The notes under the pieces are model-generated. The model was not told where the DNA came from and made no database searches. It saw only the letters and a program-made list of their open reading frames with translations. From assembly GCA_963663035.1 (NCBI GenBank), contig OY760074.1, positions 3,530,684-3,594,683 on the forward strand: DNA of 64,000 bases, in the 5' to 3' direction. This document shows positions 6,203-28,189 of the stretch, in pieces. Made by a program: the position numbers and the translations under genes. How positions within the stretch are numbered: position 1 is the first letter of the stretch; every line of letters begins with the position of its first letter. This DNA comes from Acidobacteriota bacterium (lineage in GTDB: Bacteria; Acidobacteriota; UBA6911; RPQK01; JADFOI01).

Positions 6203-6957
6203 TGCGGGTCATCTTCCTAGGGACTGGAACTTCACGTGGAATTCCGACCGTGGGCTGTGACTGTAGAGTCTGCACATCCTCCAATCCTAAGAACAAGCGG
6301 CTGCGCTCTTCGATTTTAATCGAAGGTGAGGCCAACGTGGTGATTGATACATCTGTAGACTTTCGTGCCCAGATGCTGCGACAGAATGTGAAGCATGTGG
6401 ATGCCGTCCTCTATACTCATTCCCACGCCGATCATATTCTGGGCCTGGATGATGTTTACCCCTTCAATCTGTGGTCCAAAAGAACCACCCGGCTCTATGC
6501 CAGCCCGGCAACCCTCAAGGAGGTGAAGATTACCTTCCGGCACCTGTTTAAGGGAGAGTTTCGATCGGGTGTCCCCTGTGTGGAATTGATTCCGATTGAG
6601 GGTCATTTTCGGATCGGGGATCTGGATTTTGAACCGGTGGAAGTCCTGCACGGTGATCTGCCGGTTCTGGGATTTCGGGTGGGCAGCTTCGCCTATGTGA
6701 CGGATGTCAGCTTTATCCCGGAGAAGAGCCTTGAGCAACTGAAGGGACTCGAATGCCTGGTGCTGGACGGCCTTCGCTACGACAGTCATCCCAAACATTT
6801 CAGCCTTTCTGAAGCAGCTGAAATGGCGCAGAGACTGGGTGCCGGGAAAACCTATTTAGTGCATATGAATCACGATGTCGACCATGACGAGGGAAATGCC
6901 TGTTTACCCGCATCGGTGAGGTTGGCTTACGACGGTCAGATACTGGAGATTGCCTAA
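6202..6957 (+). CDS. MBL-fold metallohydrolase (PhnP-like)
   Basis: LGTGTSRGIP..GCDCRVC, THSHADHILG, AYVTD, HFS motifs. Confidence 0.88.
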   Translation: MRVIFLGTGTSRGIPTVGCDCRVCTSSNPKNKRLRSSILIEGEANVVIDTSVDFRAQMLRQNVKHVDAVLYTHSHADHILGLDDVYPFNLWSKRTTRLYASPATLKEVKITFRHLFKGEFRSGVPCVELIPIEGHFRIGDLDFEPVEVLHGDLPVLGFRVGSFAYVTDVSFIPEKSLEQLKGLECLVLDGLRYDSHPKHFSLSEAAEMAQRLGAGKTYLVHMNHDVDHDEGNACLPASVRLAYDGQILEIA

Positions 6958-6963
6958 CCCGTC

Positions 6964-7929
6964 ATGCAAATCATCCATGATCTGACCCAGTTTCCTCGAT
7001 CTTTGAACTTTCCAATCATGACCATCGGTGTCTTCGATGGAGTTCATCGTGGACATCAGGTGATCCTCGAGCAGTTAGTGAAGCGAGCAGGAGAAAAGAA
7101 AGGGACGTCGATTCTACTGACCTTTTCCCCTCACCCCCAGAAGATCATTTCTCCCAACGACGCGCCTCCTCTTCTTCAAACAGAACTTCAGAAAGAAAAG
7201 ATGCTGGAAGAGTTCGAACTGGACTTGATCGTGTGCCTGCCCTTTACTCGAAAGCTTTCTCTTCACACTCCGGCAGACTTTGCGCGCCAGATCTTGCATA
7301 ATCACGGGATCCGCGAAATTCATGTTGGGAGCAATTTTCGCTTTGGCCACCGGCGCGCCGGAGACATAGAAACTCTCAGGTCCCTGGGAGAGGAGTTCCA
7401 GTTCGAGGTTCACGAGATCGAACCCGTTTACTTGCGTGGCACCCGCATCAGCAGCAGTTACATTCGGGATCTGCTGAGAAAGGGAAGAGTGGCTCTGGCC
7501 AAGCGTTTGCTCAAACGCCCCTACCAGATACAGGGTCTTGTGGTGCGCGGGTCAGGGAAGGGAGTGGAACTGGGATTTCCAACTGCCAATCTGGAACTGG
7601 AAAATGAACTTATTCCTGCCAACGGAGTTTATGCGACCCGGGTTCATCTCGATGGGCAGATCTACCCCAGTGTCACCAATGTGGGACATCGCCCCACCGT
7701 GCATGAGGGGACCAGCGGTGCTCCCGTCGTGGAACCTCATCTGCTGGACTTCCAGGAGGATATTTACGGTAGACAGATGAAGCTGGATTTCTGTTTTCGT
7801 CTCAGAGCGGAGAAGAAGTTTGAAAGTATCGGCAAGCTTCAAGAACAGATCGCCAGGGATGTAGCTGCAACCCGCAAGTATCTGAAGCGCATCAAAGACA
7901 GGGGTTTAGGAGGGAACAGTGCCCATTAG
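6964..7929 (+). CDS. ribF: Bifunctional riboflavin kinase/FAD synthetase
   Basis: GVFDGVHRGH, ISSSYIR, GFPTAN, NVGHRPT motifs. Confidence 0.95.
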   Translation: MQIIHDLTQFPRSLNFPIMTIGVFDGVHRGHQVILEQLVKRAGEKKGTSILLTFSPHPQKIISPNDAPPLLQTELQKEKMLEEFELDLIVCLPFTRKLSLHTPADFARQILHNHGIREIHVGSNFRFGHRRAGDIETLRSLGEEFQFEVHEIEPVYLRGTRISSSYIRDLLRKGRVALAKRLLKRPYQIQGLVVRGSGKGVELGFPTANLELENELIPANGVYATRVHLDGQIYPSVTNVGHRPTVHEGTSGAPVVEPHLLDFQEDIYGRQMKLDFCFRLRAEKKFESIGKLQEQIARDVAATRKYLKRIKDRGLGGNSAH

Positions 7930-8386: not shown

Positions 8387-9859
8387 ATGAGCGAGCTTTG
8401 CCAGCTTTCCATCCGAGAACTCCGCCAGCGAATCCAGGACGGGGATTCATCAGTCACAGAAATCACCCAGAGCTTTTTGGATCGGATCCAGCTGTGCGAC
8501 GAGAAGGTCAAGGCGTTCTTGACTCTCGAGCCGGAGTCGGTTCTCGCCCAGGCCGAAAAGCTGGATCAAGAGCTTGCTGAGGGGAAGTCCGGAAACGGAC
8601 TTCTCACGGGAATCCCCATTGCCATCAAGGACAATATGGTCACCCAGGGCGTTCGAACCACCTGCGCTTCCCGCATTCTGGAGAACTATATCCCTCCCTA
8701 TGATGCCACCGTGATTGGAAAGCTGACTCAAAATGGAGCTGTTCTGATAGGAAAGACCAATTGTGACGAATTTTCCATGGGCTCCAGTACGGAAAACTCC
8801 GCTTTTTTTCCGACCTGCAATCCATGGGATCTGGAACGGGTTCCCGGGGGATCAAGCGGAGGTTCAGCTGCAGCGGTGGCTGCCAGGGAAGTGCCAGGGG
8901 CGCTGGGCAGTGATACGGGAGGCTCGATCCGCCAGCCGGCGGCATTCTGCGGAATCGTGGGTCTCAAGCCCACCTATGGCCGGGTGTCTCGCTACGGTCT
9001 GGTTGCCTTTGCTTCCTCTCTTGACCAGATTGGTCCGCTGGGTAGCAGCGTCTATGATGTGGCCATCCTGCTTCAGGCAATCGCCGGAGCGGATCCCAAT
9101 GATTCCACTTCGGTTGCGCGTCCCGTGGAAAACTATCTGAGCGAGCTCGACCAGAACAAGGATGTCAAAGGTCTCAAGATAGGAGTCCCCAAGGAGTGGT
9201 TCGGATCCGCCCTGGATCCACAGATCGAGCAGAGCATTCAAGCGGCTCTCCAGAAGCTGGAAGGACTGGGGTGTCCAGTGGTCGAGGTCAGTATGCCCCA
9301 GACAGAGTACGCCATCAGCACCTATTACATCATCGCTCCCGCTGAGGCCAGTTCGAACCTGGCGCGCTATGATGGGGTCAAGTACGGGCACCGTAGTGCC
9401 GGTCAGGAAGACCTTGAGAGTATGTTCAAGTTTACCCGCAGTGAGGGGTTCGGTGAAGAGGTCAAGCGACGGATCATGATCGGGACTTACGTTCTGAGTT
9501 CCGGTTACTATGATGCTTATTTTTTAAAGGCCGGCAAGGTTCGAACTCTTTTGAAAAACGATTATCTGGAAGCCTTCAAGAAGGTGGATTTCCTGGTGGG
9601 ACCCACCACTCCTTCACTTCCTTTCAAGATGGGAGAGAAGAAGACCGATCCGCTGGAGATGTATCTGACCGACATCTACACCGTGACGGCCAATCTGGCT
9701 GGCATCCCGGGTCTGTCCATGCCCTGTGGCTTCAGCCAGGAGGGCCTTCCCATCGGCCTGCAAATCCAGGCTCCTCACTTTCAGGAAGCAAAGCTCCTGC
9801 GTCTGGCTCATGCCTTGGAAGAAGCACTGGACGTCCAAAAACCGGCTCTAGCAGTGTGA
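8387..9859 (+). CDS. gatA: Asp/Glu-tRNA amidotransferase subunit A
   Basis: [38 protein letters not shown]; ATG at 8387 (upstream ORF extension lies within the MITE). Confidence 0.96.
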
Positions 9860-9925
9860 GGGAAGTAAGGGCGGTCGGGAGAATGTGGGAGTGGCCTCAG
9901 GCCGCGAAGAGGTGTCGAACATCAC

Positions 9926-10753
9926 TTATCCTCTTTTGATCTGCGTTCCCTCTTTCCCTCTCACTCCCTCCAACAACGCATTCTCCTTCAACCCACTCAA
10001 GATCTGTACTGAACCCACTCCTCCCTCCAGGACCCTGAGTGCGGTCTGGACCTTGGGCACCATACCGTCAGTTAGACCTCCCTGGCTCAACAAATCCTTG
10101 GCCTCGGTGGCACTCAACTCAGAAATACAGCTGGAGGCATCGTGAATGTCCCGGTAGATTCCCTCCACGTCTGAAACGGAAATCAGTTGGCTCGCCTGCA
10201 GGCTGATGGCCAGTTCAGCAGCCAGCGTGTCGGCATTGATGTTGAGGATTTGGCCGTCTTTGTCGGCACCCAGGCAGCTCACCACGGGAAGGAAGCCGCT
10301 GTCCCAGAATTGCTGCAAAACAGACGTGTCAATACTGTCAATCTCTCCCACCAGCCCAAAATCAATCAGCTCGGCATGCTCATGGCCGGAGGAGTCGGTG
10401 GTCGTAATCGAGAGAGGCGGCCTTCTGTGGCAGCAAGTCAGCCTGGCATCGAAGGCTGAGATTCCTAAGGCCGACAAACCCAAGGCAACCAGATCCGCAA
10501 CCAGATTGCGATTCATGGCAGAGAAGACCATGGTGGCCAGCTCCAGCGTGGCCTTGTCGGTGACACGGCGCCCCTGATGCTGGACGATCGGTATCCCCAG
10601 ACGGTTGGACAGATTGGTCAGCTGTTTTCCTCCGCCGTGGACAACGATCAAACGGTGACCGTCTCGGTCCAACTGGACCAGCTGTCGGCACAGGTGGCCT
10701 CGCGGTTTGTCCTCCTCCAAGACCTTTCCACTCAGCTTGACCACCAGGATCAT
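9926..10753 (-). CDS. argB: Acetylglutamate kinase
   Basis: VVKLSG, VHGGG, GRRVTD, LNINAD, GMVPK motifs; operon with argC/argD. Confidence 0.9.
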   Translation of the reverse strand: MILVVKLSGKVLEEDKPRGHLCRQLVQLDRDGHRLIVVHGGGKQLTNLSNRLGIPIVQHQGRRVTDKATLELATMVFSAMNRNLVADLVALGLSALGISAFDARLTCCHRRPPLSITTTDSSGHEHAELIDFGLVGEIDSIDTSVLQQFWDSGFLPVVSCLGADKDGQILNINADTLAAELAISLQASQLISVSDVEGIYRDIHDASSCISELSATEAKDLLSQGGLTDGMVPKVQTALRVLEGGVGSVQILSGLKENALLEGVRGKEGTQIKRG

Positions 10754-11907
10754 ATGGTCTTGACGGCCTCCACAAAGAGATCGGCTTCACTTCGTTTCAG
10801 GACCAGAGGCGGCATCAGACGCAGGACCTGGGCATCCATTGAGGTCCCGGCCAGAATGTGCTTTTCGAGGAGCGCCCCCTGCAGTTCCTTGGCCGTCATT
10901 TTTTCACCCAATTTTAGACCCAACAGAAGTCCCCGGCCCCGCACTTCCTCAACGTGGTCAATGCCGGCAAGAGCTTCCTTCAGATAGACGCCCATCAGGC
11001 TAGCGTGTTTGGCCAGCTCTTCCCTTTCGATGACCTCCAGCGTGGCTTCCATGGCGGCGCACCCCAGGGGGCCACCCCCAAACGTGCTGCCCAGGTCGCC
11101 GCTTCTGACCGTTCTGGCCAGCTTTTCGGTCACAAGCAGAGCACCCGCGGGAAAACCCGAGGCGATCCCTTTGGCTAAAGTCACCATGTCAGGATGAATC
11201 TTGAGGTGTCCGGAGAAGAGAAAGGATCCGGTTCGTGCCACTCCTGTTTGCACCTCATCAAAGATCAGGAGTGCTCCATGGTCTTGGCAGACCTCCTGGA
11301 TCTGGCTCAGACAGTCCAGAGGGATCTCCTGCATTCCCCCCATGCTCTGAATCGGTTCGATCAGGACAGCTGCCGTTTTCTCAGAGACGGCAGCTGCCAC
11401 TCCTGCTGCGGGCAGGATCCGATGCATGGGCACCGGTGTGTTCAGGTAATCGAGATACTTGGGGATCCCGGTGCTGGAGAGACTGCCGTAGGTGCGACCA
11501 TGAAAGGAGCCGGAGAGGGAAATGACTTCGCGGCGTCCAGTGGTGGCTCGCGCCAGCTTGATGGCGTTCTCATTGGCCTCGCTGCCAGAGGTGACCAGGA
11601 ATGCCTGGTAGTAGGGTTCACCGGCCATCTCCAGCAACTTTTTCACCGCTCGCGCTCTAGCCCGGTTGTAGCTGACATTGGAGTAGAAAATCAGCTGGGC
11701 AGCCTGTTCTTGAATGGCTTGAACAACATGGGGATGGCAGTGACCTGTTGAGGCCACCGCATGAGCGCCGTAGAGATCAAGATATTGGGTTCCTTCCTGA
11801 TCATAAACGTAGCACCCCTCACCTTTCTCGATGAAGAGAGGAAACTTGGCGTAGGTTTGCAGCTGATACCGGTCCTCGTAGCTCTTCAGGTCATCTACTG
11901 TCGTCAT
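10750..11907 (-). CDS. argD: Acetylornithine aminotransferase (class III PLP)
   Basis: SGSEANENA, FHGRT, EPIQ, FDEVQTG, LAKG, STFGG; operon context. Confidence 0.88.
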   Translation of the reverse strand: MTTVDDLKSYEDRYQLQTYAKFPLFIEKGEGCYVYDQEGTQYLDLYGAHAVASTGHCHPHVVQAIQEQAAQLIFYSNVSYNRARARAVKKLLEMAGEPYYQAFLVTSGSEANENAIKLARATTGRREVISLSGSFHGRTYGSLSSTGIPKYLDYLNTPVPMHRILPAAGVAAAVSEKTAAVLIEPIQSMGGMQEIPLDCLSQIQEVCQDHGALLIFDEVQTGVARTGSFLFSGHLKIHPDMVTLAKGIASGFPAGALLVTEKLARTVRSGDLGSTFGGGPLGCAAMEATLEVIEREELAKHASLMGVYLKEALAGIDHVEEVRGRGLLLGLKLGEKMTAKELQGALLEKHILAGTSMDAQVLRLMPPLVLKRSEADLFVEAVKTI

Positions 11908-11956
11908 GGTTGGTCACCGCTTTGCTGGATTCGTGCTTTCCTGCATTCGTGCACCC

Positions 11957-12967
11957 CTAAGGGTGCACGGGGGCTGTCTCCAGGCCTGTCTCCTCAGGAA
12001 AGTCGCAAATCAGGTTCATATTTTGAACGGCCTGACCGGCGGCACCCTTTTGCAGATTATCCAACACCGACCAGACAATGAGAAAGCCATTTTGAGTTGC
12101 GGCGCCGATGTCTACGAAATTGGAGTGACGAACGAAGCTCACATTGGGAGATCCGGAGACCCAGCGAATAAAGAAATCTGAACCGTAGTAGGTTTCATAC
12201 AGGTTGGCCACTTCCTCGGTGGTCACCGACTTGGCCAACTCCATGTAGTGGCTGGCGAAGATTCCACGCACGAACGGAGCCGAGTAGGTCTGAAAGATCA
12301 ACGGGTAGTCGGGCTCACCCAGGAGCTGTGTAATCTCGGGAAGATGCTGGTGCGCAAAAGGCTTGTAGGCGAACAGGCTGTTGGTGCGCCAGGGATGATG
12401 GGTGGTGGCGCCCGGAGAGTTTCCAGCTCCCGAGGAACCCGTTTTGGTATCGACGTAGACGGGTCCCTGGATCCACTTCTCCTGAAAAAGCGGATAGAGT
12501 GCCAGGAGTGTGGCACTGGCAAAGCAGCCTGGATTGGCAATGCGCCGAGCCGAGCGGATTTCTTCCCGCTTCAGTTCCGTGAGTCCGTAAACGAAGGCCT
12601 TCTGCTCCTCGGGGCAGTGGGGCGGAAAGCTGTAGAATTTCTCAAACACTTCGGGGTCTGCCAGCCGAAAATCACCGCTCAGATCGATGACCACCAGCTC
12701 GCCGGGCAGTTCCGGCACCAGCTTCATCGCTTCCCCGTGGGGCAAAGCCAGAAACAGGACATCCAGCTGTGAAGCGGGCAGCTCCTCCAAAGGCGAGAAA
12801 CGGAGCTTCAGCACCCCGCGCAAGTGTGGATAGACGCTTGCGACTTCTTTTCCGGCATGTTGTTGGGAGGAGATCCAAGCGATCGTGACATCGGGGTGAC
12901 GCAGGAGAATTTGAATGAGCTCAATGCCTCCGTAGCCCGAACCGCCGGCTATTCCGATTTGAGCCAT
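11957..12967 (-). CDS. argC: N-acetyl-gamma-glutamyl-phosphate reductase
   Basis: GGSGYGG, LALPHG, IDLSGDFR, IANPGC, DNLQKGAAGQAVQNMN. Confidence 0.94.
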   Translation of the reverse strand: MAQIGIAGGSGYGGIELIQILLRHPDVTIAWISSQQHAGKEVASVYPHLRGVLKLRFSPLEELPASQLDVLFLALPHGEAMKLVPELPGELVVIDLSGDFRLADPEVFEKFYSFPPHCPEEQKAFVYGLTELKREEIRSARRIANPGCFASATLLALYPLFQEKWIQGPVYVDTKTGSSGAGNSPGATTHHPWRTNSLFAYKPFAHQHLPEITQLLGEPDYPLIFQTYSAPFVRGIFASHYMELAKSVTTEEVANLYETYYGSDFFIRWVSGSPNVSFVRHSNFVDIGAATQNGFLIVWSVLDNLQKGAAGQAVQNMNLICDFPEETGLETAPVHP

Positions 12968-14034
12968 GGCATCAGAGTCTCTAGAACGAAAGTGCAGATC
13001 GTGCCCGTGCCTTCCCGAGAATTGCCTGCCGGAAGGTCCCAGTGTTCCTCAATGTAACGTATGCCTTCCCCACTGTCCGTGACAGGTCCTGAAATGAGAA
13101 TCGGATACTTCCTGGGACCTTGCTTGGACAACCACTCCATAGCTCCCCACACACCCATCAAGTCATTGGCGCACACGATCATCGATACGCAGCAGCTCAT
13201 GAATTGTTCATCTTCAAAGAGGGAGGCAACCTGATAGCCTCCCAGGACTCCGTCACCCATCTCCAGAACAATGAAGTCAGGGTGGGACTCGGACAGATAG
13301 TGCACCATGGAGCGGGCGATGGGGACAACGGTTTCCAGATGGGCCGTGGAAGGTATGCCGAAGTCCTGAAAGCTCAGAATTTTTTGAGCGCCGTTTTCCT
13401 TCATGGCCAGAGGGTCTTTCAAGCAACCTACCCCGGCAACTTTTCCAGCGTTGATGGAAAACCCCTTATCAGTGAACATCTTCAGGAGTTGTTGGCAAAC
13501 GGCGGTTTTCCCGGCGTTCATGCAGGTCCCCACAACCATGACTACCGGAACCTCCAGGATGGGCTTATCGACTAGAGCGAGAGCGAAGTCTTTCAGATTA
13601 GCAGCTCGGCCGTTCCAGGAAACGGTGCCCAGGTACTCCAGTTGGGTGGGCCATCCTAAATCGCGATGGAAATCCGTGCATTCTCCTATGACACCACCCC
13701 GATTGAGCAGGTGAAGCTCCATGCCTGCCTTGAGCTCAGAGGGAGGATCGCCTGAAAATCCTTGCAGGGCTTTGCGGCTTCCCAAGGCTCCAATGATCAA
13801 TTCTCCTCCACTCAGAGTCTCCTCCTCCCCATCCAGTGTTTCCAGCTTCGAATAGTCGGTATTGACCTTCTTGACTTTTACCAGGACCAGGTCCCCGTGA
13901 TGGGCGGTCTTCTCCTCTGTCACCCTGAGAAGTCCGGCAAGGGGAACTCGACTGGTCACGGAGGCGATCAGATCAGGTCTGACTCCTTCAGGCTTTGAGG
14001 CAGATGTGGGATCGACTAAGACTTTAACTTGCAT
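12949..14034 (-). CDS. DUF1611/DgcN-like P-loop protein, first gene of arg operon
   Basis: GTCMNAGKT P-loop, GKVAGVG..D, DFG.PST, LEMGDG; ATG 14034 with GAGG RBS; overlaps argC start by 19 nt; family assignment by motif recall. Confidence 0.7.
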   Translation of the reverse strand: MQVKVLVDPTSASKPEGVRPDLIASVTSRVPLAGLLRVTEEKTAHHGDLVLVKVKKVNTDYSKLETLDGEEETLSGGELIIGALGSRKALQGFSGDPPSELKAGMELHLLNRGGVIGECTDFHRDLGWPTQLEYLGTVSWNGRAANLKDFALALVDKPILEVPVVMVVGTCMNAGKTAVCQQLLKMFTDKGFSINAGKVAGVGCLKDPLAMKENGAQKILSFQDFGIPSTAHLETVVPIARSMVHYLSESHPDFIVLEMGDGVLGGYQVASLFEDEQFMSCCVSMIVCANDLMGVWGAMEWLSKQGPRKYPILISGPVTDSGEGIRYIEEHWDLPAGNSREGTGTICTFVLETLMPWLKSE

Positions 14035-14062
14035 GGTTGACCTCGCTGAACGTTTCTTCCAG

Positions 14063-14098
14063 AGTGCATAATTATACATAGTTTAGTGAATATGTCAA
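14063..14098 (-). promoter_or_regulatory. Consensus sigma70 promoter with overlapping ARG box (ArgR operator)
   Basis: Minus strand TTGACA (14093-14098)-16 nt-TATAAT (14071-14076); TATGTATAATTATGCACT (14063-14080) matches WNTGNATWWWWATNCANW at every position. Confidence 0.8.
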
Positions 14099-14127
14099 GG
14101 ATAAAGGTGTATAATCGCCTGAAATAT

Positions 14128-14976
14128 TCAGTGCGGGCGCCGCGACTTCAAGCGGACCACGCTGCCGTAGATCTCGCGCTTGGAGAGAGGGAGTTCTCGG
14201 GCGGCTCGCTGGATGGCTTCTTTTTGAGTGAGTCCTTCTACCTCCATCAGTCCTAAAACGTAGGCCGCTCCATCGACCTGAGGCGAAACCTCATTCTGTT
14301 GGGAGGTGCAACCTTCAAGAACCAGGGTATATTCACCCCGAGGACGTTCTTGCTCCAGAGTCTTGCGGACATCTTGGAGGAGACCGAAGTAGTGAGTTTC
14401 ATGCAGCTTGGTCATTTCTCGGACCAGGAAAGATCTCCGATCACCCAGGATTTCCACAATCCTTTTGACGGTGGGAAGAAGACCATGCGGAGAGAGGTAA
14501 ATCAGGAGGGTGGACTCCTCTCGGGAGAGTGTTTGCAGCAGTTCCCGTTGTGGGCCGGTTCGGCGGGGAAGGAAACCGACGAAGAGAAAGCGATGAGTCG
14601 GCAGACCCGAAATGGAGAGTGCGGCCGTGGCTGCCGAGGGGCCGGGAACGGAGTAGACGGCAATCTCCTTTTCTCGGCAGGAGACCACCAGGCGATGACC
14701 GGGATCGGAGAGAAGTGGAGTTCCGGCGTCCGAGACCAGCGCGAGGGCATGTCCCTGCTCGAGCTGGGTGATCAGAGCAGGGGTCTTGGCTGCTTCATTG
14801 TGCTCGTGGTAGCTGGTGGTTGCTGTGTGAATGGCGAAGTGGTTGAGAAGCTTGCGGGTGTGCCGGGTATCCTCACAGGCTATGAGGTCCACCTCGCCCA
14901 GGATCCGTACCGCACGCGGACTCAGATCCTCCAGATTTCCCAGCGGCGTGGCCACCACATATAGAATTCCCGACAT
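14128..14976 (-). CDS. rsmI: 16S rRNA (C1402) 2'-O-methyltransferase
   Basis: LYVVATPLGNLED, ACEDTR, SDAGTP, PGPSA, REMTKLHE. Confidence 0.95.
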   Translation of the reverse strand: MSGILYVVATPLGNLEDLSPRAVRILGEVDLIACEDTRHTRKLLNHFAIHTATTSYHEHNEAAKTPALITQLEQGHALALVSDAGTPLLSDPGHRLVVSCREKEIAVYSVPGPSAATAALSISGLPTHRFLFVGFLPRRTGPQRELLQTLSREESTLLIYLSPHGLLPTVKRIVEILGDRRSFLVREMTKLHETHYFGLLQDVRKTLEQERPRGEYTLVLEGCTSQQNEVSPQVDGAAYVLGLMEVEGLTQKEAIQRAARELPLSKREIYGSVVRLKSRRPH

Positions 14977-15002
14977 ATCTCACCTCGAAGCGGAATTCCG
15001 GG

Positions 15003-15761
15003 TTAGTTCGATTGATCTTGTGTGGTCCGTGGGGTCATCGCCTCCAACATTTCCCGAACGGCCCTTTCCATTCCCACCAGTGCGGCCCTGGCTACAATAT
15101 TGTGGCCGATGTTCAGTTCGGTAATTTGAGGAATATCCGAGACGGGACCAACGTTGCGGTAGGTGAGACCGTGACCGGCTAAAACGCGCAGCCCGAGAGA
15201 TTCGGCCAACTGTGCCGCCGCCACGATTTTGTCCAGCTCGCTCTGGAACCCCTCATCGCTTTCCTTGAGTCCCTTGGGAACCGCCTCGGAATAAGCAGCT
15301 GTGTTGATCTCGATCATGGTGACCCGGGTGATGGCGGCATGCTCGATTTGATTGCGTTCGGGATCGATGAAGAGGGAAACTTCCAATCCGCCTTCCTGCA
15401 ATCTTTGCACTGCCCCCATGATCTCCCTCTCGTTTTTGACCACGTCCAGGCCCCCCTCCGTGGTGACTTCTTCCTCCCGCTCCGGAACCAGAGTCGCGCT
15501 GTCAGGAGCCACTTCCAGGGCCAGGCTGACCATCTCCTCTGTGACCGCCATTTCCAGGTTGAGTCGGGTCGTGATCACCTCGCGCAGAAGTCTCACGTCT
15601 CGATCACTGATGTGGCGACGATCTGAACGCAGGTGAACGGTGATTCCGTGTGCCCCAGCCAGTTCAGCCAGAACAGCCGCCGCCACCGGATCCGGTTCAG
15701 GCGCTTGACGTGCCTGACGAATGGTGGCGATGTGATCGACATTGACACCGAGCGTAGTCAT
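15003..15761 (-). CDS. pdxJ: Pyridoxine 5'-phosphate synthase
   Basis: [40 protein letters not shown]. Confidence 0.95.
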
Positions 15762-15768
15762 GAAAGAG

Positions 15769-15800
15769 AGAATACAGAATCCAGAATCCAGAATCCAGAA
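15769..15800. repeat. Heptamer tandem repeat (AGAATCC)n
   Basis: agaatac-agaatcc-agaatcc-agaatcc-agaa. Confidence 0.8.
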
Positions 15801-15806
15801 GGGGAA

Positions 15807-15911
15807 GGCCCGCAGGCTAAAGCCTGTGGCTCTGACGGAGCTGACGAGGCTCAAACAGAGCCGTGGGCTTTAGCTCCCGGAAACAGAGCCGTGGGCTTTA
15901 GCCCACGGGCC
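15807..15911. repeat. Cluster of three REP-like palindromes
   Basis: GGCCCGCAGGCTAAAGCCTGTGGCTCTG and two AAACAGAGCCGTGGGCTTTAGC(CCACGG) units; same family at 24177-24209 and 31719-31773. Confidence 0.85.
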
Positions 15912-15916
15912 AGTTG

Positions 15917-16675
15917 TCAGCTGTCAGCGGTCTGCTGTCCGTACCTCCCCCGGAAATCTTTCCATCTGATCCCCACAAGATCCCACGCCATCCTACCGGC
16001 ATCGGGAGCGAATCGCACACTGCTGCCCGGGACGTGCCGCCACACTACCGGGACCTCTTTGAGAGTGAGTCCCCACTTATGGGCCATATAGAGGATTTCC
16101 ACATCAAACCCGAAGCCATCGATGGTTTGCTTTCGAAAGAGGTCCTGGCAGCGGCCCATGTTGAAAAGCTTGAAGCCACACTGGGTGTCAGCGTAGGGAA
16201 GGCCGGTAGAGAGCCGCACCAGCCGGTTGAAAATCTTTCCGCTGGTTTCTCGAAACCAGGTTTGGCGCACTTCGATCTGGGATTCTTCCATGTCACGAGA
16301 TCCGAAAGCGATATGGCAGCTCCCATCGATAACTTCCCTCTCGAGTTTGGAGATCTCCTCGATCGGAGAACTCAAGTCGGCATCGGTCAACAGCGAGTAG
16401 GCGCCCTGAGCTTCCAGCATTCCACGTCGCACGCTGTAACCCTTGCCCCGGTTCCGGTCGTTGCGAAGGAGGCGCACCGTTCCCTCTGGATCATCCCTTG
16501 TGCCCAGCTCTTGGGTAATTTCACCGGTCCGATCCTGGGAGCCGTCGTCCACCACCAGGATCTCGAAAGAACGGCTGCGCGATCTCAGGTACACGGAAAT
16601 CCGTTCCAAGGTGGAGCCAATGCGCTGCTCTTCGTTGTAGGCGGGGATGACGACGGACAGGGACGGATGATTCAT
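15917..16675 (-). CDS. GT2 glycosyltransferase (dolichyl-phosphate glucosyltransferase-like)
   Basis: VIPAYNE, VVDDGS.D, NRGKG, DADL, DTQCGFK, FGFDVEIL. Confidence 0.9.
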   Translation of the reverse strand: MNHPSLSVVIPAYNEEQRIGSTLERISVYLRSRSRSFEILVVDDGSQDRTGEITQELGTRDDPEGTVRLLRNDRNRGKGYSVRRGMLEAQGAYSLLTDADLSSPIEEISKLEREVIDGSCHIAFGSRDMEESQIEVRQTWFRETSGKIFNRLVRLSTGLPYADTQCGFKLFNMGRCQDLFRKQTIDGFGFDVEILYMAHKWGLTLKEVPVVWRHVPGSSVRFAPDAGRMAWDLVGIRWKDFRGRYGQQTADS

Positions 16676-18123
16676 TGGAGAATGGTGAGGACCTTGCGCA
16701 GGCGCTGAAGAGTTCTGTCCTTTCCCAGGGTGACGATCACATCAAAGATTCCCGGGGCCGCTGTTTTTCCTGTTAAGGCAACCCGAATGGCACCAATAAA
16801 TTTCCCTGCCTTGATTTCATGCCGTTCTCCCACTTCTCGCAGGACTTTTTCCGTTGCTTCCAGACTGAACTCTCCCAGGGCCTGATAAGCCTCGGAGAGT
16901 TCCTGAATTGCGCCGACCAGGGTCAAGCGCTGCGCTGGTTCCTCAAAAGAAAGGAATTTTTCTATCGCCTGTTGCTCATATTCAAAGTCATCAGAAAAGA
17001 AGGGCCTTCCCAGATCGGCGAACTCGGTGAGCTTTTTAGCGCGGGACTTCAAGAGCTCGATTGTGCTCAGGAATTGGTCCCGACCTTCACTCTCCCAAGC
17101 CCGATCCCACAGCTTCTCCTCCTGAAGGAGGGACTTCACCTCTGGTTCCAGCTCCTGAGGTGTCGCCCGTGAGATGTACTGTCCGTTCATCCATTCCAGT
17201 TTTTGGGGATCAAACAGGGCATCGGCCTTATTAATGCGGCGGATGTCAAAGCGTTCGATCAGCTCCTCTTGGGTGAAGATCTCTTCATCCCCGCTGGGTG
17301 ACCATCCCAGGCGAACCAGATAATTCTTGAGGGCGGCCGGCAGGAACCCCTGCTTTTTATATTCTAGAACCGAAGTGGCGCCATGGCGTTTGCTGAGACG
17401 CTTCTTATCCGGGCCCAGGATGAGGGGAAGATGCACATAAGAGGGCTTCGGCTGCGCGAAAGCCTGGTAGAGCAAAACGTGTTTGCTGGTATTGGAAAGG
17501 TGGTCAGCGCCTCGCACCACATGTGAGATCTTCATTTCGCTGTCATCCGCCACCACGCAAAGATGGTAGGTCGGTGTGCCGTCGGAGCGAAGAAGGACGA
17601 AGTCTTCAATATTTTCGGTCTCCACTTCGATGGGACCATAGACAAGATCTTCGAAGTTAACCTTCTGCTGGTCGGGAACCTTGAATCTCACGGCAAAAGG
17701 CTCCCCGGCCGTCAGGCGTCCCTGGACCTTCTCTCTGGAGAGCTTGCGGCAGGTGCGGTCATACCGCCACTCCTGTCCCCCAACCCGGGCTGCCTGTTTT
17801 TTGCTCTCCAGCAGTTCGGGAGAGCAAAAGCAGCGGTAGGCGCCTTCTGACTCCAGCAGTTGCTGGCTGAGGGCACGATAACTTTCAAACCGCTGGGACT
17901 GATAGAAAGGTCCTTCGTCCCAATCAAGTCCCAGCCAGCCCAAGCCCTCCAGGATCCCCTCCACCATCTCGGCACTGGAACGCTTCACATCGGTATCTTC
18001 AATGCGCAGGGCAAAGGTGCCGCCCTTTTGACGGGCCAGCAGCCAGTTGAACAGAGCGGTGCGGGCCCCGCCAATGTGCAGGTAACCGGTCGGACTGGGT
18101 GCAAATCTGACTCTTACGCTCAT
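16672..18123 (-). CDS. gltX: Glutamate--tRNA ligase
   Basis: RFAPSPTGYLHIGG, LRIEDTD, RGADH, RLSKRHG. Confidence 0.96.
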   Translation of the reverse strand: MSVRVRFAPSPTGYLHIGGARTALFNWLLARQKGGTFALRIEDTDVKRSSAEMVEGILEGLGWLGLDWDEGPFYQSQRFESYRALSQQLLESEGAYRCFCSPELLESKKQAARVGGQEWRYDRTCRKLSREKVQGRLTAGEPFAVRFKVPDQQKVNFEDLVYGPIEVETENIEDFVLLRSDGTPTYHLCVVADDSEMKISHVVRGADHLSNTSKHVLLYQAFAQPKPSYVHLPLILGPDKKRLSKRHGATSVLEYKKQGFLPAALKNYLVRLGWSPSGDEEIFTQEELIERFDIRRINKADALFDPQKLEWMNGQYISRATPQELEPEVKSLLQEEKLWDRAWESEGRDQFLSTIELLKSRAKKLTEFADLGRPFFSDDFEYEQQAIEKFLSFEEPAQRLTLVGAIQELSEAYQALGEFSLEATEKVLREVGERHEIKAGKFIGAIRVALTGKTAAPGIFDVIVTLGKDRTLQRLRKVLTILQ

Positions 18124-26812: not shown

Positions 26813-28189
26813 CTAAAGACCAGCACGGGATAGTTCATCGAGAAAGTAAGCGGCGCTTCTGACCCCAGCGAAGAAATTATCCAGGTCCAGCTTCTCGTTC
26901 GGTGCGTGGGCGTTCTCATCCGGTAGGCCGATTCCCATGAGAACGGTGGGGATGTTCAGCAGTTCGGCAAAGGTTGCCACCACCGGAATAGACCCCCCCT
27001 CGCGCTGAAAGACCGGCTCCTTGCCAAATGCTTTTTCGAGAGCTTTTGCAGCTGCCACCAAAGCGGGATGATCCAGCGATGCAGCCCAGGGCTTTCCTCC
27101 GTGCATGCGGGTCATTTTCAGGTGCACCGATGGGGGAGCGAGTGAATGCACGTAATTCTCAAACAGATCTGCGATGGTGTCCGGATCTTGATCGGGAACC
27201 AGCCGCATGCTCACCTTCGCCATGGCTTGAGCGGGTAAGACCGTCTTAGCCCCTTCCCCGGTAAAGCCGCACTCCAGACCATTGATTTCGAAGGTGGGTC
27301 GCACCCAGAGCCGCTCCAGGGGCGTGTAGCCATCTTCGCCCGACAGTTGCGTTAGGCCAAACACTTGCTTGAAGTTTGCCTCGTCAAAAGGCAAGCGGGC
27401 ATACTCCTGCCGCTCTCTGTCTGTGACTTCCCGCACTGCATCATAAAAGTGAGGGATCATGACCCGGCCGTTTTCATTCTTCATTGCAGTTAAGATCTTG
27501 GAGAGCTCAAATCCCGGGTTCACAACCGTTCCTCCAAAGGATCCCGAGTGGAGGTCGGTATTGGCTCCCTGCAAATCAAGTTGGAAATAAACCAGGCCTC
27601 GCAGCCCGTAACAGAGTGAAGGAACCCCACGGGCAAACATTGCAGTATCGGAAATCATGCCGACATCAGACTTGAGCAGGTCTTGGTGGGTCTCAATGAA
27701 CTGATCTAAATGAGGACTGCCGATTTCCTCTTCACCTTCAATGAGGAACTTGATATTCACCGGAAGTTGTTGGCGAGTGTTCATGAATGCTTCAGCACTC
27801 TTGAAGTGGATGAACACCTGGCCCTTATCGTCAGCTGCCCCCCGTGCATAGAGCTCCCCCTGGCGAATGGTGGGTTCAAAGGGAGGCGTTTCCCAAAGCT
27901 CAATCGGGTCGACCGGCTGGACATCGTAATGCCCGTAGATCAAGAGGGTTGGTTTCGCTTCCTCCATAACCCGCTCGGCATAGACAATGGGATGCCCCTC
28001 GGTGGAAAAGATCTCCACCTTCTCCATGCCTGCCTCCTTCAGCTGATCCTTGACGAATTCTGCAGCTTTTCTGACGTCTTGTGTGTTGGAGGGATCAGTA
28101 CTGACACTGGGAATTCTCAAGAATTCTTTCAGTTCCTCCAGGTAGCGGTCCTGGTTTTTTTCAATGTAGTCGATGATCGCCTTCATCAC
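26813..28189 (-). CDS. M20-family dipeptidase
   Basis: YGHYDVQP, RGAADDKGQ, EGEEEIGS, DLHSG, EGGSIP, HAPNE. Confidence 0.92.
   Translation of the reverse strand: MMKAIIDYIEKNQDRYLEELKEFLRIPSVSTDPSNTQDVRKAAEFVKDQLKEAGMEKVEIFSTEGHPIVYAERVMEEAKPTLLIYGHYDVQPVDPIELWETPPFEPTIRQGELYARGAADDKGQVFIHFKSAEAFMNTRQQLPVNIKFLIEGEEEIGSPHLDQFIETHQDLLKSDVGMISDTAMFARGVPSLCYGLRGLVYFQLDLQGANTDLHSGSFGGTVVNPGFELSKILTAMKNENGRVMIPHFYDAVREVTDRERQEYARLPFDEANFKQVFGLTQLSGEDGYTPLERLWVRPTFEINGLECGFTGEGAKTVLPAQAMAKVSMRLVPDQDPDTIADLFENYVHSLAPPSVHLKMTRMHGGKPWAASLDHPALVAAAKALEKAFGKEPVFQREGGSIPVVATFAELLNIPTVLMGIGLPDENAHAPNEKLDLDNFFAGVRSAAYFLDELSRAGL

What the first reader, a model, noticed from the sequence alone, without database searches (positions are those of the whole stretch)
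9926..14098. DUF1611/DgcN-like protein heads an argC-argD-argB operon lacking argA/argJ: candidate new N-acetylglutamate synthase
Seen: a 361-aa P-loop protein (GTCMNAGKT) is the first gene behind a consensus promoter with an exact ARG box, overlaps argC, and is followed by steps 2-4 of acetylated ornithine synthesis; no argA, argJ or argE is in the operon. Known: ArgB needs N-acetyl-L-glutamate, and the characterised DUF1611-family enzyme DgcN is an acetyl-CoA-dependent D-glutamate N-acetyltransferase. Inference: this protein may be a non-GNAT L-glutamate acetyltransferase (or an ATP-dependent acylating enzyme) filling the first step of arginine synthesis. The family call is from motif recall only.
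Basis: partly seen in the sequence, partly recalled or inferred. Interest (0 to 1): 0.85.

Follow-up and report, generated by a model that had tools for sequence, protein, structure and literature searches.

The report
Likely missing first arginine-synthesis enzyme
An uncharacterised two-domain P-loop protein at the head of this arginine operon most likely makes the N-acylated glutamate that starts arginine synthesis in bacteria lacking the usual enzymes, a role that a recent preprint already predicts for what seems to be the same family but that nobody has tested.

Summary
A 361-aa protein ("X", 12949-14034, minus strand) sits behind a perfect sigma-70 promoter and an ARG box, overlaps argC by 19 nt, and is followed by argD and argB. 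The complete 3.59-Mb genome shows no ArgJ, ArgA or LysW. The ARG-box pattern occurs only twice in it: before argR-argG-argH-argF and before X.

X has no Pfam or NCBIfam family. Its relatives are all named "hypothetical". In 69 of 72 informative loci from several phyla argC lies directly downstream of X. None of 101 carrier genomes has ArgJ. One metagenomic protein is an X-ArgB fusion.

The C-terminal half is a BioD/DUF1611-like P-loop domain, with DgcN tied with dethiobiotin synthetase and CTP synthase. The N-terminal beta domain matches no solved structure (best Z 3.5).

The carbamoyltransferases encoded beside X in relatives all carry the N-succinylornithine-type signature. The product is therefore more likely N-succinyl- than N-acetyl-glutamate.

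The idea is not new. The GapMind 2026 preprint predicts, without a test, a Steroidobacter protein with the same context as an alternative N-succinylglutamate synthase. I could not fetch that sequence to confirm identity.

Verdict: sound finding, interpretation partly right, probably a new member of an already predicted family, with the acyl donor (acyl-CoA or acid plus ATP) unknown.

The parts
14071..14098 (-). sigma-70-type promoter, TTGACA (14098-14093), 16-nt spacer, TATAAT (14076-14071)
   Evidence: 12 of 12 consensus positions. Only 2 promoter-like sites in 9700-14300, against a mean of 1.2 in shuffles, so the count alone is not significant.
14063..14080 (-). ARG-box-like palindrome TATGTATAATTATGCACT overlapping the -10 hexamer
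   Evidence: the only match in the window, and 0 of 100 shuffles gave one; one of two matches in the 3.59-Mb genome, the other being upstream of argR. An argR gene is present (114.2 bits, below the 130.45 cut-off).
12949..14034 (-). X: 361-aa candidate N-acyl-L-glutamate synthase (stop codon included)
   Evidence: No Pfam or NCBIfam family at E <= 0.01. AlphaFold2 model with pLDDT 90.7.
13600..13986 (-). X N-terminal all-beta domain (about residues 17-145), with invariant S25, E65, R87, N111 and Gly-rich loops
   Evidence: pLDDT 92.1. No PDB match: Foldseek best E 0.37; VIA-align best Z 3.5 among 48,161 chains.
12952..13557 (-). X C-terminal BioD/DUF1611-like SIMIBI P-loop domain (about residues 160-361)
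   Evidence: Z 15.9 for 2g0t, 15.7 for BioD 3of5, 15.3 for 2obn, 15.0 for CTP synthase, 14.9 for DgcN 7xrj (all tied); hhalign to DUF1611 gives 72%, E 3.3e-5, 187 columns.
13504..13530 (-). Walker A / P-loop G169-T-C-M-N-A-G-K176-T177
   Evidence: G169, M172, G175 and K176 are invariant and T170 and T177 are at least 90% conserved in 40 sequences. Further invariant residues are K198, D207, E258-x-G260-D261-G262, D291 and T319-D320.
11957..12967 (-). [quoted passage not shown]
   Evidence: TIGR01850 366.1 bits (cut-off 233.6).
10750..11907 (-). argD, N-acylornithine aminotransferase
   Evidence: PF00202 327.8 bits. TIGR00707 347.7 bits (cut-off 410.05, not reached).
9926..10753 (-). argB, N-acylglutamate kinase
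   Evidence: TIGR00761 203.3 bits (cut-off 151.3).

Best explanation
X is the enzyme for step 1 of arginine synthesis in this organism. It is an N-acyl-L-glutamate synthase that stands in for ArgA/ArgJ and feeds ArgB, ArgC and ArgD, which are encoded just downstream in the same ArgR-controlled operon.

Proposed mechanism (inferred):
- The product is most likely N-succinyl-L-glutamate.
- The novel N-terminal beta domain, with invariant R87, N111, E65 and S25, holds the glutamate.
- The C-terminal BioD/DUF1611-like P-loop domain holds the nucleotide part of the acyl donor. By analogy with the DUF1611 enzyme DgcN, the donor is taken to be an acyl-CoA (succinyl-CoA).

Downstream steps in this genome (inferred):
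- The acyl group must be removed from N-acylornithine by a deacylase encoded elsewhere, with an M20 enzyme as the candidate.
- The canonical OTC (argF) then acts.
- In most relatives an N-succinylornithine-type ArgF' acts first, and the acyl group is removed from acylcitrulline.

Shown here: gene order, the regulatory motif, the phyletic pattern, the fold, the fusion to ArgB, and the ArgF' signatures.
Inferred: the catalytic activity, the acyl group and the donor.
For: The gap in this genome:
- It is one contig, 96.6% complete, with no ArgJ.
- TIGR01890 finds only ArgB itself.
- There is no LysW, and the only ATP-grasp hit is RimK-like (140.5 bits against 275.6).
- The four clear GNAT genes are RimI, a RimL-like protein and two unassigned ones. 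None lies near arg genes and none approaches a NAGS cut-off.

The regulon:
- The ARG-box pattern occurs twice in the genome, before argR-argG-argH-argF and before X-argC-argD-argB.
- X is the only unassigned gene of the eight.

Gene context:
- 72 of 80 loci from genome contigs have at least 1300 bp downstream of X. In 69 of these 72, argC starts within 600 bp on the same strand.
- The commonest order is argR-argG-X-argC-argD-argF'-argB.

Phyletic pattern:
- Among 201 sampled genomes of the phylum, 51 have X (E < 1e-100) and 52 have ArgJ, with no overlap.
- Families f9 and f27 hold both kinds, in different genomes.
- Only 1 of the 201 has a classical ArgA.
- In 50 further carriers from several phyla, ArgJ is found in 0 of 50 and ArgA over its cut-off in 0 of 50.

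Fusion: P0301 is an in-frame fusion of X to an ArgB-type kinase domain, seen on 4 contigs.

Fold: the C-terminal domain is of the BioD/DUF1611 type, and DgcN (7xrj) is among the tied top matches.

Acyl group:
- ArgF' beside X has T/A/S, P and I/V/E at X. campestris AOTCase positions 92, 185 and 302 in 54 of 54 loci, and A/S/P, P and V in 5 of 5 genomes of the window's own order.
- The review PMC4581275 (section 10 read) gives E, N, K for acetyl-type enzymes and A/S/P/V/Q, P, V/I/E for succinyl-type enzymes.
- G104, an ArgF' genome without X, has E/N/K.

Independent prediction: the GapMind 2026 preprint makes the same prediction for a protein with the same context.
Against: - There is no biochemical or genetic evidence anywhere, and the preprint itself calls its protein a prediction.
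- Context arguments have failed for this very step. The same preprint (section 10 passage) reports that 'ArgA3', proposed from gene context as a NAGS, is an N-acetylornithine deacetylase.
- The window's genome has no ArgF', so the succinyl inference is carried over from relatives.
- The similarity to DgcN is remote and no better than the similarity to ATP-using BioD or CTP synthase, so acyl-CoA use is only an analogy.
- Two small unassigned GNATs exist in the genome.
- I had no model or sequence of the Bacteroides ArgA2/BT3761-type GNAT to search with.
- In 3 of 72 loci argC is not next to X.
- Of the 44 ArgF' genomes of the phylum sample, 3 with succinyl-type residues at positions 92 and 185 show no intact X. 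In G174 the contig starts within argC. In G171 argG ends at a contig end and argC on another contig has no X upstream. In G052 the region is degraded and position 302 is K.
- Acetyl-CoA dependence of DgcN rests on its EC class 2.3.1.312 (passage in PMC11747546) and on my recollection. The primary paper was not in the library.
Confidence: 0.55

Rival explanations
1. X catalyses the same step by different chemistry. It is an ATP-dependent ligase of the kind found in the BioD, CTP-synthase and CobQ group. It phosphorylates the carboxylate of free succinate (or acetate), and the amino group of L-glutamate then attacks the acyl phosphate. The products are N-acylglutamate, ADP and phosphate. The acid released later by the deacylase would be reused without CoA.
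For: - The complete NTPase set is invariant in 40 of 40 sequences (T177 in at least 90%): Walker A GTxxxxGK176T, and E258 in an E-x-G-D-G motif.
- Invariant K198 (AGKxAG) aligns with the lysine of the K-P motif of dethiobiotin synthetase. E258-x-G-x-G aligns with its E-G-x-G-G.
- The DUF1611 profile leaves the K198 segment unaligned.
- By fold, ATP-using BioD (Z 15.7) and CTP synthase (Z 15.0) tie with the DUF1611 proteins (Z 15.9, 15.3, 14.9).
- That these enzymes act through phosphorylated oxygen intermediates is established knowledge that I recall; no call shows it.
Against: - Profile comparison places X slightly nearer to DUF1611 (72%, score 45.5; with 6 sequences 61%, score 42.3) than to BioD (28%, score 34.9).
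- The one characterised two-domain relative, DgcN, is classed as an acetyltransferase (EC 2.3.1.312).
- An invariant lysine can serve other roles.
- No ligase that N-acylates glutamate is known to me.
Confidence: 0.22
2. One reading: X here makes N-acetyl-L-glutamate. The pathway is the ordinary linear acetyl route (ArgB, ArgC, ArgD, an ArgE-like deacetylase, then OTC).
For: - The window's genome and 10 other X carriers of the sample (nine in its own order, one in its class) have no ArgF'. The window's genome has a canonical OTC (NF001986 385.1 bits, cut-off 306).
- An ArgE/DapE-family M20 protein is present (below all cut-offs).
- DgcN transfers acetyl.
Against: - The five ArgF'-bearing genomes of the same order have succinyl-type ArgF' together with X.
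- All 40 invariant residues of the family are kept in the window's X, so nothing suggests a change of substrate.
- The one sampled acetyl-type ArgF' genome (G104) lacks X.
Confidence: 0.15
3. X does not make N-acylglutamate. It is an accessory NTPase of the pathway, for example a metal-inserting or regulatory SIMIBI protein serving the deacylase. Alternatively it replaces another ArgJ function, the recycling of the acyl group.
For: - G3E metallochaperones (HypB, UreG, MeaB) are among the fold matches at Z 13.8-15.1.
- The anti-correlation with ArgJ would also fit a replacement of ArgJ's transferase function.
- Context-based assignment of this step has been wrong before.
Against: - Step 1 would then still have no candidate in any of 101 carriers.
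- The ArgF' route needs no acyl recycling at ornithine.
- The P-loop begins GT, as in BioD and DUF1611.
- X is fused to ArgB, the enzyme of step 2.
Confidence: 0.08

Closest known systems
[quoted passage not shown]
   Same: - A hypothetical protein inside arg operons with argB, argC, argD, argF', argG, argH and argR.
- Never found together with ArgA.
- Weak Foldseek similarity to DgcN 7XRJ (theirs E 1.4e-7, rmsd 5.6 A; mine E 1.3e-5, rmsd 6.2 A).
- The neighbouring ArgF' lacks Glu at position 92.
   Different: - Sequence identity with X could not be tested, because no tool gave me that protein. That the two are the same family is my inference, at about 0.9.
- Their example has ArgF'; the window's lineage has a canonical OTC.
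- The sections I read compare only with ArgA and report neither a domain analysis nor a fusion. Here ArgJ is compared as well, the N-terminal domain is shown to have no known fold, and an X-ArgB fusion is reported.
DgcN, D-glutamate N-acetyltransferase (EC 2.3.1.312; PDB 7XRJ), a DUF1611 family protein (PF07755)
   Same: - About 340-360 aa, with a C-terminal BioD-like P-loop domain whose Walker A begins GT.
- Acts on glutamate to give an N-acyl-glutamate, if the prediction for X holds.
   Different: - X fails the PF07755 cut-off (12.3 bits against 25). 6 of 40 family members give E <= 0.01, the best 1.8e-4.
- hhalign covers only the C-terminal domain.
- X's N-terminal domain is all-beta and matched no PDB chain, 7XRJ included.
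- DgcN works in D-glutamate catabolism; X is linked to arginine synthesis.
Dethiobiotin synthetase BioD and the amidoligase domain of CTP synthase
   Same: - Same P-loop fold at tied Z scores (15.7 and 15.0).
- GTxxxxGKT, a second lysine, and an E-x-G-x-G motif align.
   Different: - BioD is a single domain of about 225 aa. The genome has its own bioD (TIGR00347 119.8 bits).
- X has an extra N-terminal domain and a different gene context.
- hhalign gives only 28% over 101 columns.
ArgA2/BT3761-type GNAT, N-succinylglutamate synthase of Bacteroidota (passages of PMC7311316 and PMC9026213 read)
   Same: Same proposed reaction and the same kind of operon, together with an N-succinylornithine carbamoyltransferase. 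A non-orthologous replacement of ArgA.
   Different: It has a GNAT fold; X has a P-loop fold and no GNAT domain. BT3761 has genetic support in B. thetaiotaomicron; X has none.
Classical ArgA, ArgJ and short GNAT NAGS
   Same: The step they serve.
   Different: No sequence or fold relation. These are not found in X carriers.

Membership tests
DUF1611 / DgcN (PF07755) | Match to PF07755 above its gathering score | tested here: not met
   12.3 bits against 25, E 0.11, residues 176-208 of the 376-aa frame only; 6 of 40 family members reach E <= 0.01, the best 1.8e-4.
DUF1611 / DgcN (PF07755) | C-terminal BioD-like P-loop domain | tested here: met
   2g0t Z 15.9 (rmsd 2.9, 175 aligned), 2obn Z 15.3, 7xrj Z 14.9, but tied with BioD and CTP synthase; hhalign 72%, E 3.3e-5.
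DUF1611 / DgcN (PF07755) | N-terminal domain of the DUF1611 type (Rossmann-like, as I recall it) | tested here: inconclusive
   X's N-terminal domain is all-beta by DSSP. No PDB chain reached Z 5 or Foldseek E 0.001. hhalign did not align the N-terminal halves.
DUF1611 / DgcN (PF07755) | Acyl-CoA-dependent N-acylation of glutamate | not testable with these tools
   Needs an enzyme assay.
Predicted alternative N-succinylglutamate synthase (ACG33_RS14135 family) | [quoted passage not shown] | not testable with these tools
   The reference sequence was not obtainable. Searches for named members did not list it. Atlas neighbours at score 0.98 are hypothetical proteins, commonest in Pseudomonadota; this is a lead only.
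Predicted alternative N-succinylglutamate synthase (ACG33_RS14135 family) | Encoded in arginine-synthesis operons | tested here: met
   argC lies directly downstream in 69 of 72 informative loci.
Predicted alternative N-succinylglutamate synthase (ACG33_RS14135 family) | Not found in the same genome as ArgA | tested here: met
   no ArgA over its cut-off in the window's genome or in 0 of 50 further carriers; the only classical ArgA among 201 sampled genomes is in G058, which has no X.
Predicted alternative N-succinylglutamate synthase (ACG33_RS14135 family) | Neighbouring ArgF' of the succinyl type (no Glu at position 92) | tested here: inconclusive
   Met in relatives: 54 of 54 loci and 5 of 5 genomes of the same order. 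The window's genome has no ArgF', only a canonical OTC.
Dethiobiotin synthetase (BioD, TIGR00347) | Single-domain protein of about 225 aa matching TIGR00347 | tested here: not met
   No NCBIfam match for X at E <= 0.01. The genome's bioD lies elsewhere. X has an added 145-aa domain.
GNAT-type or ArgJ-type N-acetylglutamate synthases | GNAT or ArgJ domain | tested here: not met
   no such match in X.

The most novel reading that the evidence does not exclude
X founds a new enzyme class for the first step of arginine synthesis. It would be a CoA-independent, ATP-dependent succinate (or acetate):L-glutamate ligase, built from a beta domain of unknown fold and a BioD-like phosphoryl-transfer domain. 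Thousands of bacteria in Acidobacteriota, Planctomycetota, Chloroflexota and other phyla would then protect glutamate with a free acid plus ATP rather than with an acyl-CoA.
Probability: 0.2. Interest if true: 0.8.

Novelty: new member of a known kind. Interest (0 to 1): 0.5.

Why it matters
N-acylglutamate formation is the committed and usually regulated step of arginine synthesis. Its apparent absence makes genome-based tools call many Acidobacteriota and other uncultured bacteria arginine auxotrophs; a passage of PMC11561045 notes missing N-acetylglutamate synthase in some Holophagaceae.

The family is large. It has 605 clusters at 50% identity at E <= 1e-30 and at least 6837 clusters at 90% identity at E <= 1e-20, a count that may include paralogues. 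All that carry a name are called 'hypothetical'.

Proof of activity would have four effects:
- It would close a recurrent gap in metabolic reconstruction.
- It would add a non-GNAT solution to a textbook step.
- It would define the function of a new beta domain.
- It would settle whether BioD-like P-loop domains can serve as acyl-CoA transferases or whether these proteins act as ligases.

The present work adds the following to the preprint's prediction:
- The exclusion with ArgJ.
- The ArgR-box regulon in a complete genome.
- A lineage that pairs X with a canonical OTC.
- The X-ArgB fusion.
- The domain analysis.

Tried and rejected
LysW/LysX carrier route: rejected. There is no LysW, and the only ATP-grasp hit is a RimK-like protein far from the arg genes.

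Hidden GNAT synthase:
- The GNAT half of TIGR01890 finds nothing in the window's genome.
- The four PF00583 genes are RimI, a RimL-like protein and two unassigned GNATs, none near arg genes.
- This is not fully excluded. I had no model of the Bacteroides ArgA2 type.

Fused forms: none of 633-2000 aa, which the tool itself rates as weak evidence. One fusion of 626 aa turned up later.

Sequence search of the PDB with X or with its profile reached only P-loop segments, the best being BioD at E 0.028.

N-terminal domain:
- No Pfam family.
- Atlas neighbours are short unnamed fragments.
- Foldseek and VIA-align found no convincing fold.

DgcN literature:
- Searches for 'DUF1611', 'DgcN', and 'DgcN' plus 'D-glutamate' plus 'N-acetyltransferase' did not find the primary paper.
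- A search for 'N-acetyl-D-glutamate' found only PMC11747546, of which I read two passages.

Naming the family: cluster look-ups and a third homologue search listed no Steroidobacter protein. The identity of X with the preprint's family therefore stays an inference.

Paralogues of X were examined as a possible bridge to function. They lie beside peptidases, an ATP-grasp gene and an ABC exporter, not arg genes.

Not used or not seen:
- Supplementary files and figures of the preprint, including Figure S2 with the taxa, could not be seen. They may already list Acidobacteriota.

Full report
**What is there.**
On the minus strand the window holds four tightly packed genes:
- X, 12949-14034, 361 aa.
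- argC, 11957-12967.
- argD, 10750-11907.
- argB, 9926-10753.

X overlaps argC by 19 nt, and argD overlaps argB by 4 nt. The three arg genes are identified by family models:
- argC: TIGR01850, 366.1 bits against a cut-off of 233.6.
- argB: TIGR00761, 203.3 bits against 151.3.
- argD: PF00202, 327.8 bits. Its NCBIfam subfamily score of 347.7 is below the 410 cut-off.

Upstream lies a 12-of-12 sigma-70 promoter, TTGACA-16-TATAAT, at 14098..14071. An ARG-box-like palindrome at 14063-14080 overlaps the -10 hexamer. The longer frame that starts at 14079 begins inside this promoter. The ATG at 14034, with GAGG 8 nt upstream, is therefore the likely start.

**The regulatory link is specific.**
The relaxed ARG-box pattern is unique in the window, and 0 of 100 shuffles gave a match. 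It occurs only twice in the 3,594,683-base genome. One copy precedes X. The other lies just upstream of argR, which heads argR-argG-argH-argF at 1,807,387-1,803,398. These two operons hold eight genes, and seven of them are known arginine genes. X is the eighth. The consensus from which I derived the pattern is recalled, not taken from a call.

**The gap.**
The genome is a single contig rated 96.6% complete.
- ArgJ (PF01960) is not found. The same search rings in 10 of 14 control genomes.
- The ArgA model finds only ArgB itself.
- LysW is not found. The only LysX-like hit is a RimK-like ATP-grasp protein below the cut-off.
- Four clear GNAT genes exist: RimI, a RimL-like protein and two unassigned ones. 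None is near arg genes and none approaches any NAGS model cut-off.
- The carbamoyltransferase is a canonical OTC (385.1 bits against 306), not an acylornithine type.
- M20 deacylase candidates exist elsewhere in the genome.

**X has no named family but many relatives.**
- X has no Pfam or NCBIfam family at E <= 0.01.
- At E <= 10 only P-loop fragments appear: MobB 0.068 and DUF1611 0.11.
- Of 40 aligned family members, 12 touch MobB, 6 touch DUF1611, 5 touch CbiA and 1 touches AAA_26 at E <= 0.01.
- The first homologue search gave 146 clusters. A profile of distant members gave at least 6837 clusters at E <= 1e-20 among the 8000 scored. Every named one is 'hypothetical protein'.
- A full HMMER scan of 1.84 billion representatives gave 2025, 1357 and 605 proteins at E <= 1e-3, 1e-10 and 1e-30.
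- Record titles name Acidobacteriota (many Pyrinomonadaceae, Blastocatellia, Thermoanaerobaculia and Chloracidobacterium), Planctomycetota, Chloroflexota, Sumerlaeota, Wallbacteria and some Clostridia-labelled genomes recovered from metagenomes.

**Context in relatives.**
- Of the 80 best loci, 72 have at least 1300 bp downstream of X. In 69 of these 72, argC starts within 600 bp on the same strand.
- The exceptions are L036, L048 and L060.
- The commonest architecture is argH(reverse)-argR-argG-X-argC-argD-argF'-argB (24 loci), followed by the same without argH (13 loci).
- Four loci have the window's X-argC-argD-argB form.
- Family scans confirm argR, argG and an ArgF' of the NF003384 type at 438-456 bits against a cut-off of 288.
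- An M20 deacylase and argH close the cluster in a few loci.
- In these operons every step is encoded except the first. X is the one conserved gene without an assignment.

**Phyletic pattern.**
I sampled 201 genomes of the phylum, each at least 90% complete.
- 51 have X at E < 1e-100 and 52 have ArgJ. No genome has both.
- Two families (f9 and f27) contain X genomes and ArgJ genomes side by side, so the exchange happened more than once.
- Related genomes are not independent, so I give no test statistic.
- Only 1 of the 201 (G058) has a classical ArgA.
- Many ArgJ genomes carry a short GNAT next to argJ.
- 56 of the 201 give no ArgB-type match at all.
- In 50 further X carriers reached through their loci (50 of the 80; selection described under Tried and rejected), ArgJ is found in 0 of 50 and ArgA over its cut-off in 0 of 50. 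Only 3 of the 50 show weak GNAT-half matches.
- These genomes carry no completeness figures, so absence in any single one is not shown.

**A fusion.**
Among the representatives, P0301 is 626 aa, cut at its N-terminus, named 'acetylglutamate kinase' by its source and seen on 4 contigs. It joins an X-like region (residues 4-312) in frame to an ArgB-type amino-acid-kinase domain. That domain scores PF00696 115.2 bits and TIGR00761 127.1 bits, the latter below its 151.3 cut-off. It is a single case. It links X to the enzyme that would use its product, as the kinase domain does in classical ArgA.

**Structure.**
The AlphaFold2 model is confident (pLDDT 90.7).

C-terminal domain, residues about 160-361:
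- It is a SIMIBI-class P-loop domain.
- By VIA-align the top rows are tied: TM0796/DUF1611 2g0t Z 15.9, BioD 3of5 Z 15.7, DUF1611 2obn Z 15.3, CTP synthase Z 15.0, DgcN 7xrj Z 14.9.
- Foldseek ranks 7xrj twelfth, at E 1.3e-5.
- Profile-profile comparison gives X-DUF1611 72% (score 45.5, 187 columns, C-terminal domain only). With six DUF1611 sequences it gives 61% (score 42.3). X-BioD gives 28% (score 34.9, 101 columns). DUF1611-BioD gives 86% (score 49.8).
- X is therefore a third branch of the BioD-like group. It is a little nearer to DUF1611 but is not a member of it.

N-terminal domain, about residues 17-145, modelled alone at pLDDT 92.1:
- It is all-beta.
- It finds nothing in the PDB. The Foldseek best is E 0.37. 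VIA-align against 48,161 chains gives a best Z of 3.5 and none at 5 or above.
- A missing match does not prove a new fold. It does show that this domain does not resemble the N-terminal domain of the solved DUF1611 proteins.

**Which acyl group.**
- The review PMC4581275 (section 10 read) states that Glu92, Asn185 and Lys302 of X. campestris N-acetylornithine transcarbamylase distinguish it from N-succinylornithine transcarbamylases. The latter have A/S/P/V/Q, P and V/I/E at these positions.
- I placed these positions by aligning one ArgF' to the PDB chains of that enzyme and its E92 and K302 mutants.
- All 54 ArgF' proteins encoded beside X have T (49), A (3) or S (2) at the first position, P (54) at the second, and I (43), V (9) or E (2) at the third.
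- Thr is not in the review's list. The preprint treats it as similar.
- The five ArgF'-bearing genomes of the window's own order have A/S/P, P and V.
- Of the 44 ArgF' genomes in the phylum sample, 40 have X.
- Of the other four, G104 has the acetyl-type E/N/K and a different operon.
- In G174 the contig starts within argC. In G171 argG ends at a contig end and argC, on another contig, has no X upstream. G052 has a degraded region.
- The pathway linked to X therefore looks succinyl-based.
- For the window's own lineage this is an extrapolation. Eleven of the 51 carriers lack ArgF'; the window's genome has a canonical OTC.

**Prior work.**
- Its grounds are conserved location in arg operons, absence of ArgA homologues from the same genomes, weak Foldseek similarity to 7XRJ, and non-Glu residues at ArgF' position 92.
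- The preprint gives no experiment for this protein.
- Every property it lists holds for X. Atlas neighbours of X at score 0.98 are hypothetical proteins commonest in Pseudomonadota.
- I could not obtain the Steroidobacter sequence, so that the two are one family is an inference, at about 0.9.
- My searches with 'N-succinylglutamate synthase' and with 'N-acetylglutamate synthase', 'argJ', 'missing' and 'Acidobacteria' turned up no other paper on such a protein.
- The same preprint warns that a context-based 'ArgA3' turned out to be a deacetylase.

**Mechanism.**
Shown here: X belongs to the arginine regulon and operon, replaces ArgJ/ArgA phyletically, can be fused to ArgB, and has a nucleotide-binding BioD-like domain with an intact Walker A, K198, D207, E258-x-GDG, D291 and T319-D320.

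Inferred: X N-acylates L-glutamate.

Two donor chemistries remain open:
- By analogy with DgcN (EC 2.3.1.312, passage in PMC11747546), an acyl-CoA whose nucleotide part sits on the P-loop.
- By analogy with BioD, CTP synthase and CobQ-type enzymes, ATP-dependent activation of the free acid. In favour of this, K198 and the E-x-G-x-G motif align with the corresponding BioD residues.

I rate the acyl-CoA version somewhat higher, because the only characterised two-domain relative works that way.

**Verdict.**
- The idea is already in print as an untested prediction.
- The window adds a complete-genome case with a clean ArgR regulon, a lineage that combines X with a canonical OTC, the exclusion with ArgJ, a fusion to ArgB, and the finding that the N-terminal domain has no known fold.
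- Supplementary files and figures of the papers were not seen.

Noticed in passing
P0301 (metagenomic protein, 626 aa): In-frame fusion of an X-like region (residues 4-312) with an ArgB-type amino-acid-kinase domain (363-597). It is seen on 4 contigs, and its N-terminus is cut by a contig end.
   Followed up: partly
L092 5083-6141, L094 5740-6972, L095 5756-7024, L097 4994-6118: Paralogues of X (E about 1e-48 to 1e-58 against the family profile) lie beside M20 and M28/TFR-dimer peptidases, a YheC/D ATP-grasp gene and an ABC exporter, not arg genes. One passes the DUF1611 cut-off (31.5 bits) on its P-loop only. They may act on other N-acyl amino acids or peptides.
   Followed up: partly
genome G000:C1:1807392-1807409 (outside the window): The second and only other ARG-box match in the genome lies directly upstream of argR, which heads argR-argG-argH-argF.
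   Followed up: yes
L114 2140-3153 (G104): An Acidobacteriota genome whose ArgF' carries the acetyl-type E/N/K signature. It has a different operon order (argF'-argG-M20-argB-argD) and no X.
   Followed up: partly
phylum sample, (e.g. G014:C63:7671-8075 beside argJ at 6340-7503): ArgJ-carrying Acidobacteriota often have a GNAT of about 130 aa, matching the acetyltransferase half of the ArgA model, next to argJ. G150 and G169 have such a GNAT near argB without ArgJ or X.
   Followed up: no
window 26873-28135, minus strand: An M20-family peptidase or deacylase gene (two matches to TIGR01910 in one 474-aa frame). It is a possible N-acylornithine deacylase candidate but lies 13 kb from the operon and has no ARG box.
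   Followed up: no
window 14128-18123 and L002 3415-6605: The genes upstream of the operon read, by my recollection of their N-terminal motifs and not by any search, as rsmI, pdxJ, a glycosyltransferase and gltX. They stand in the same order in the related locus L002.
   Followed up: no
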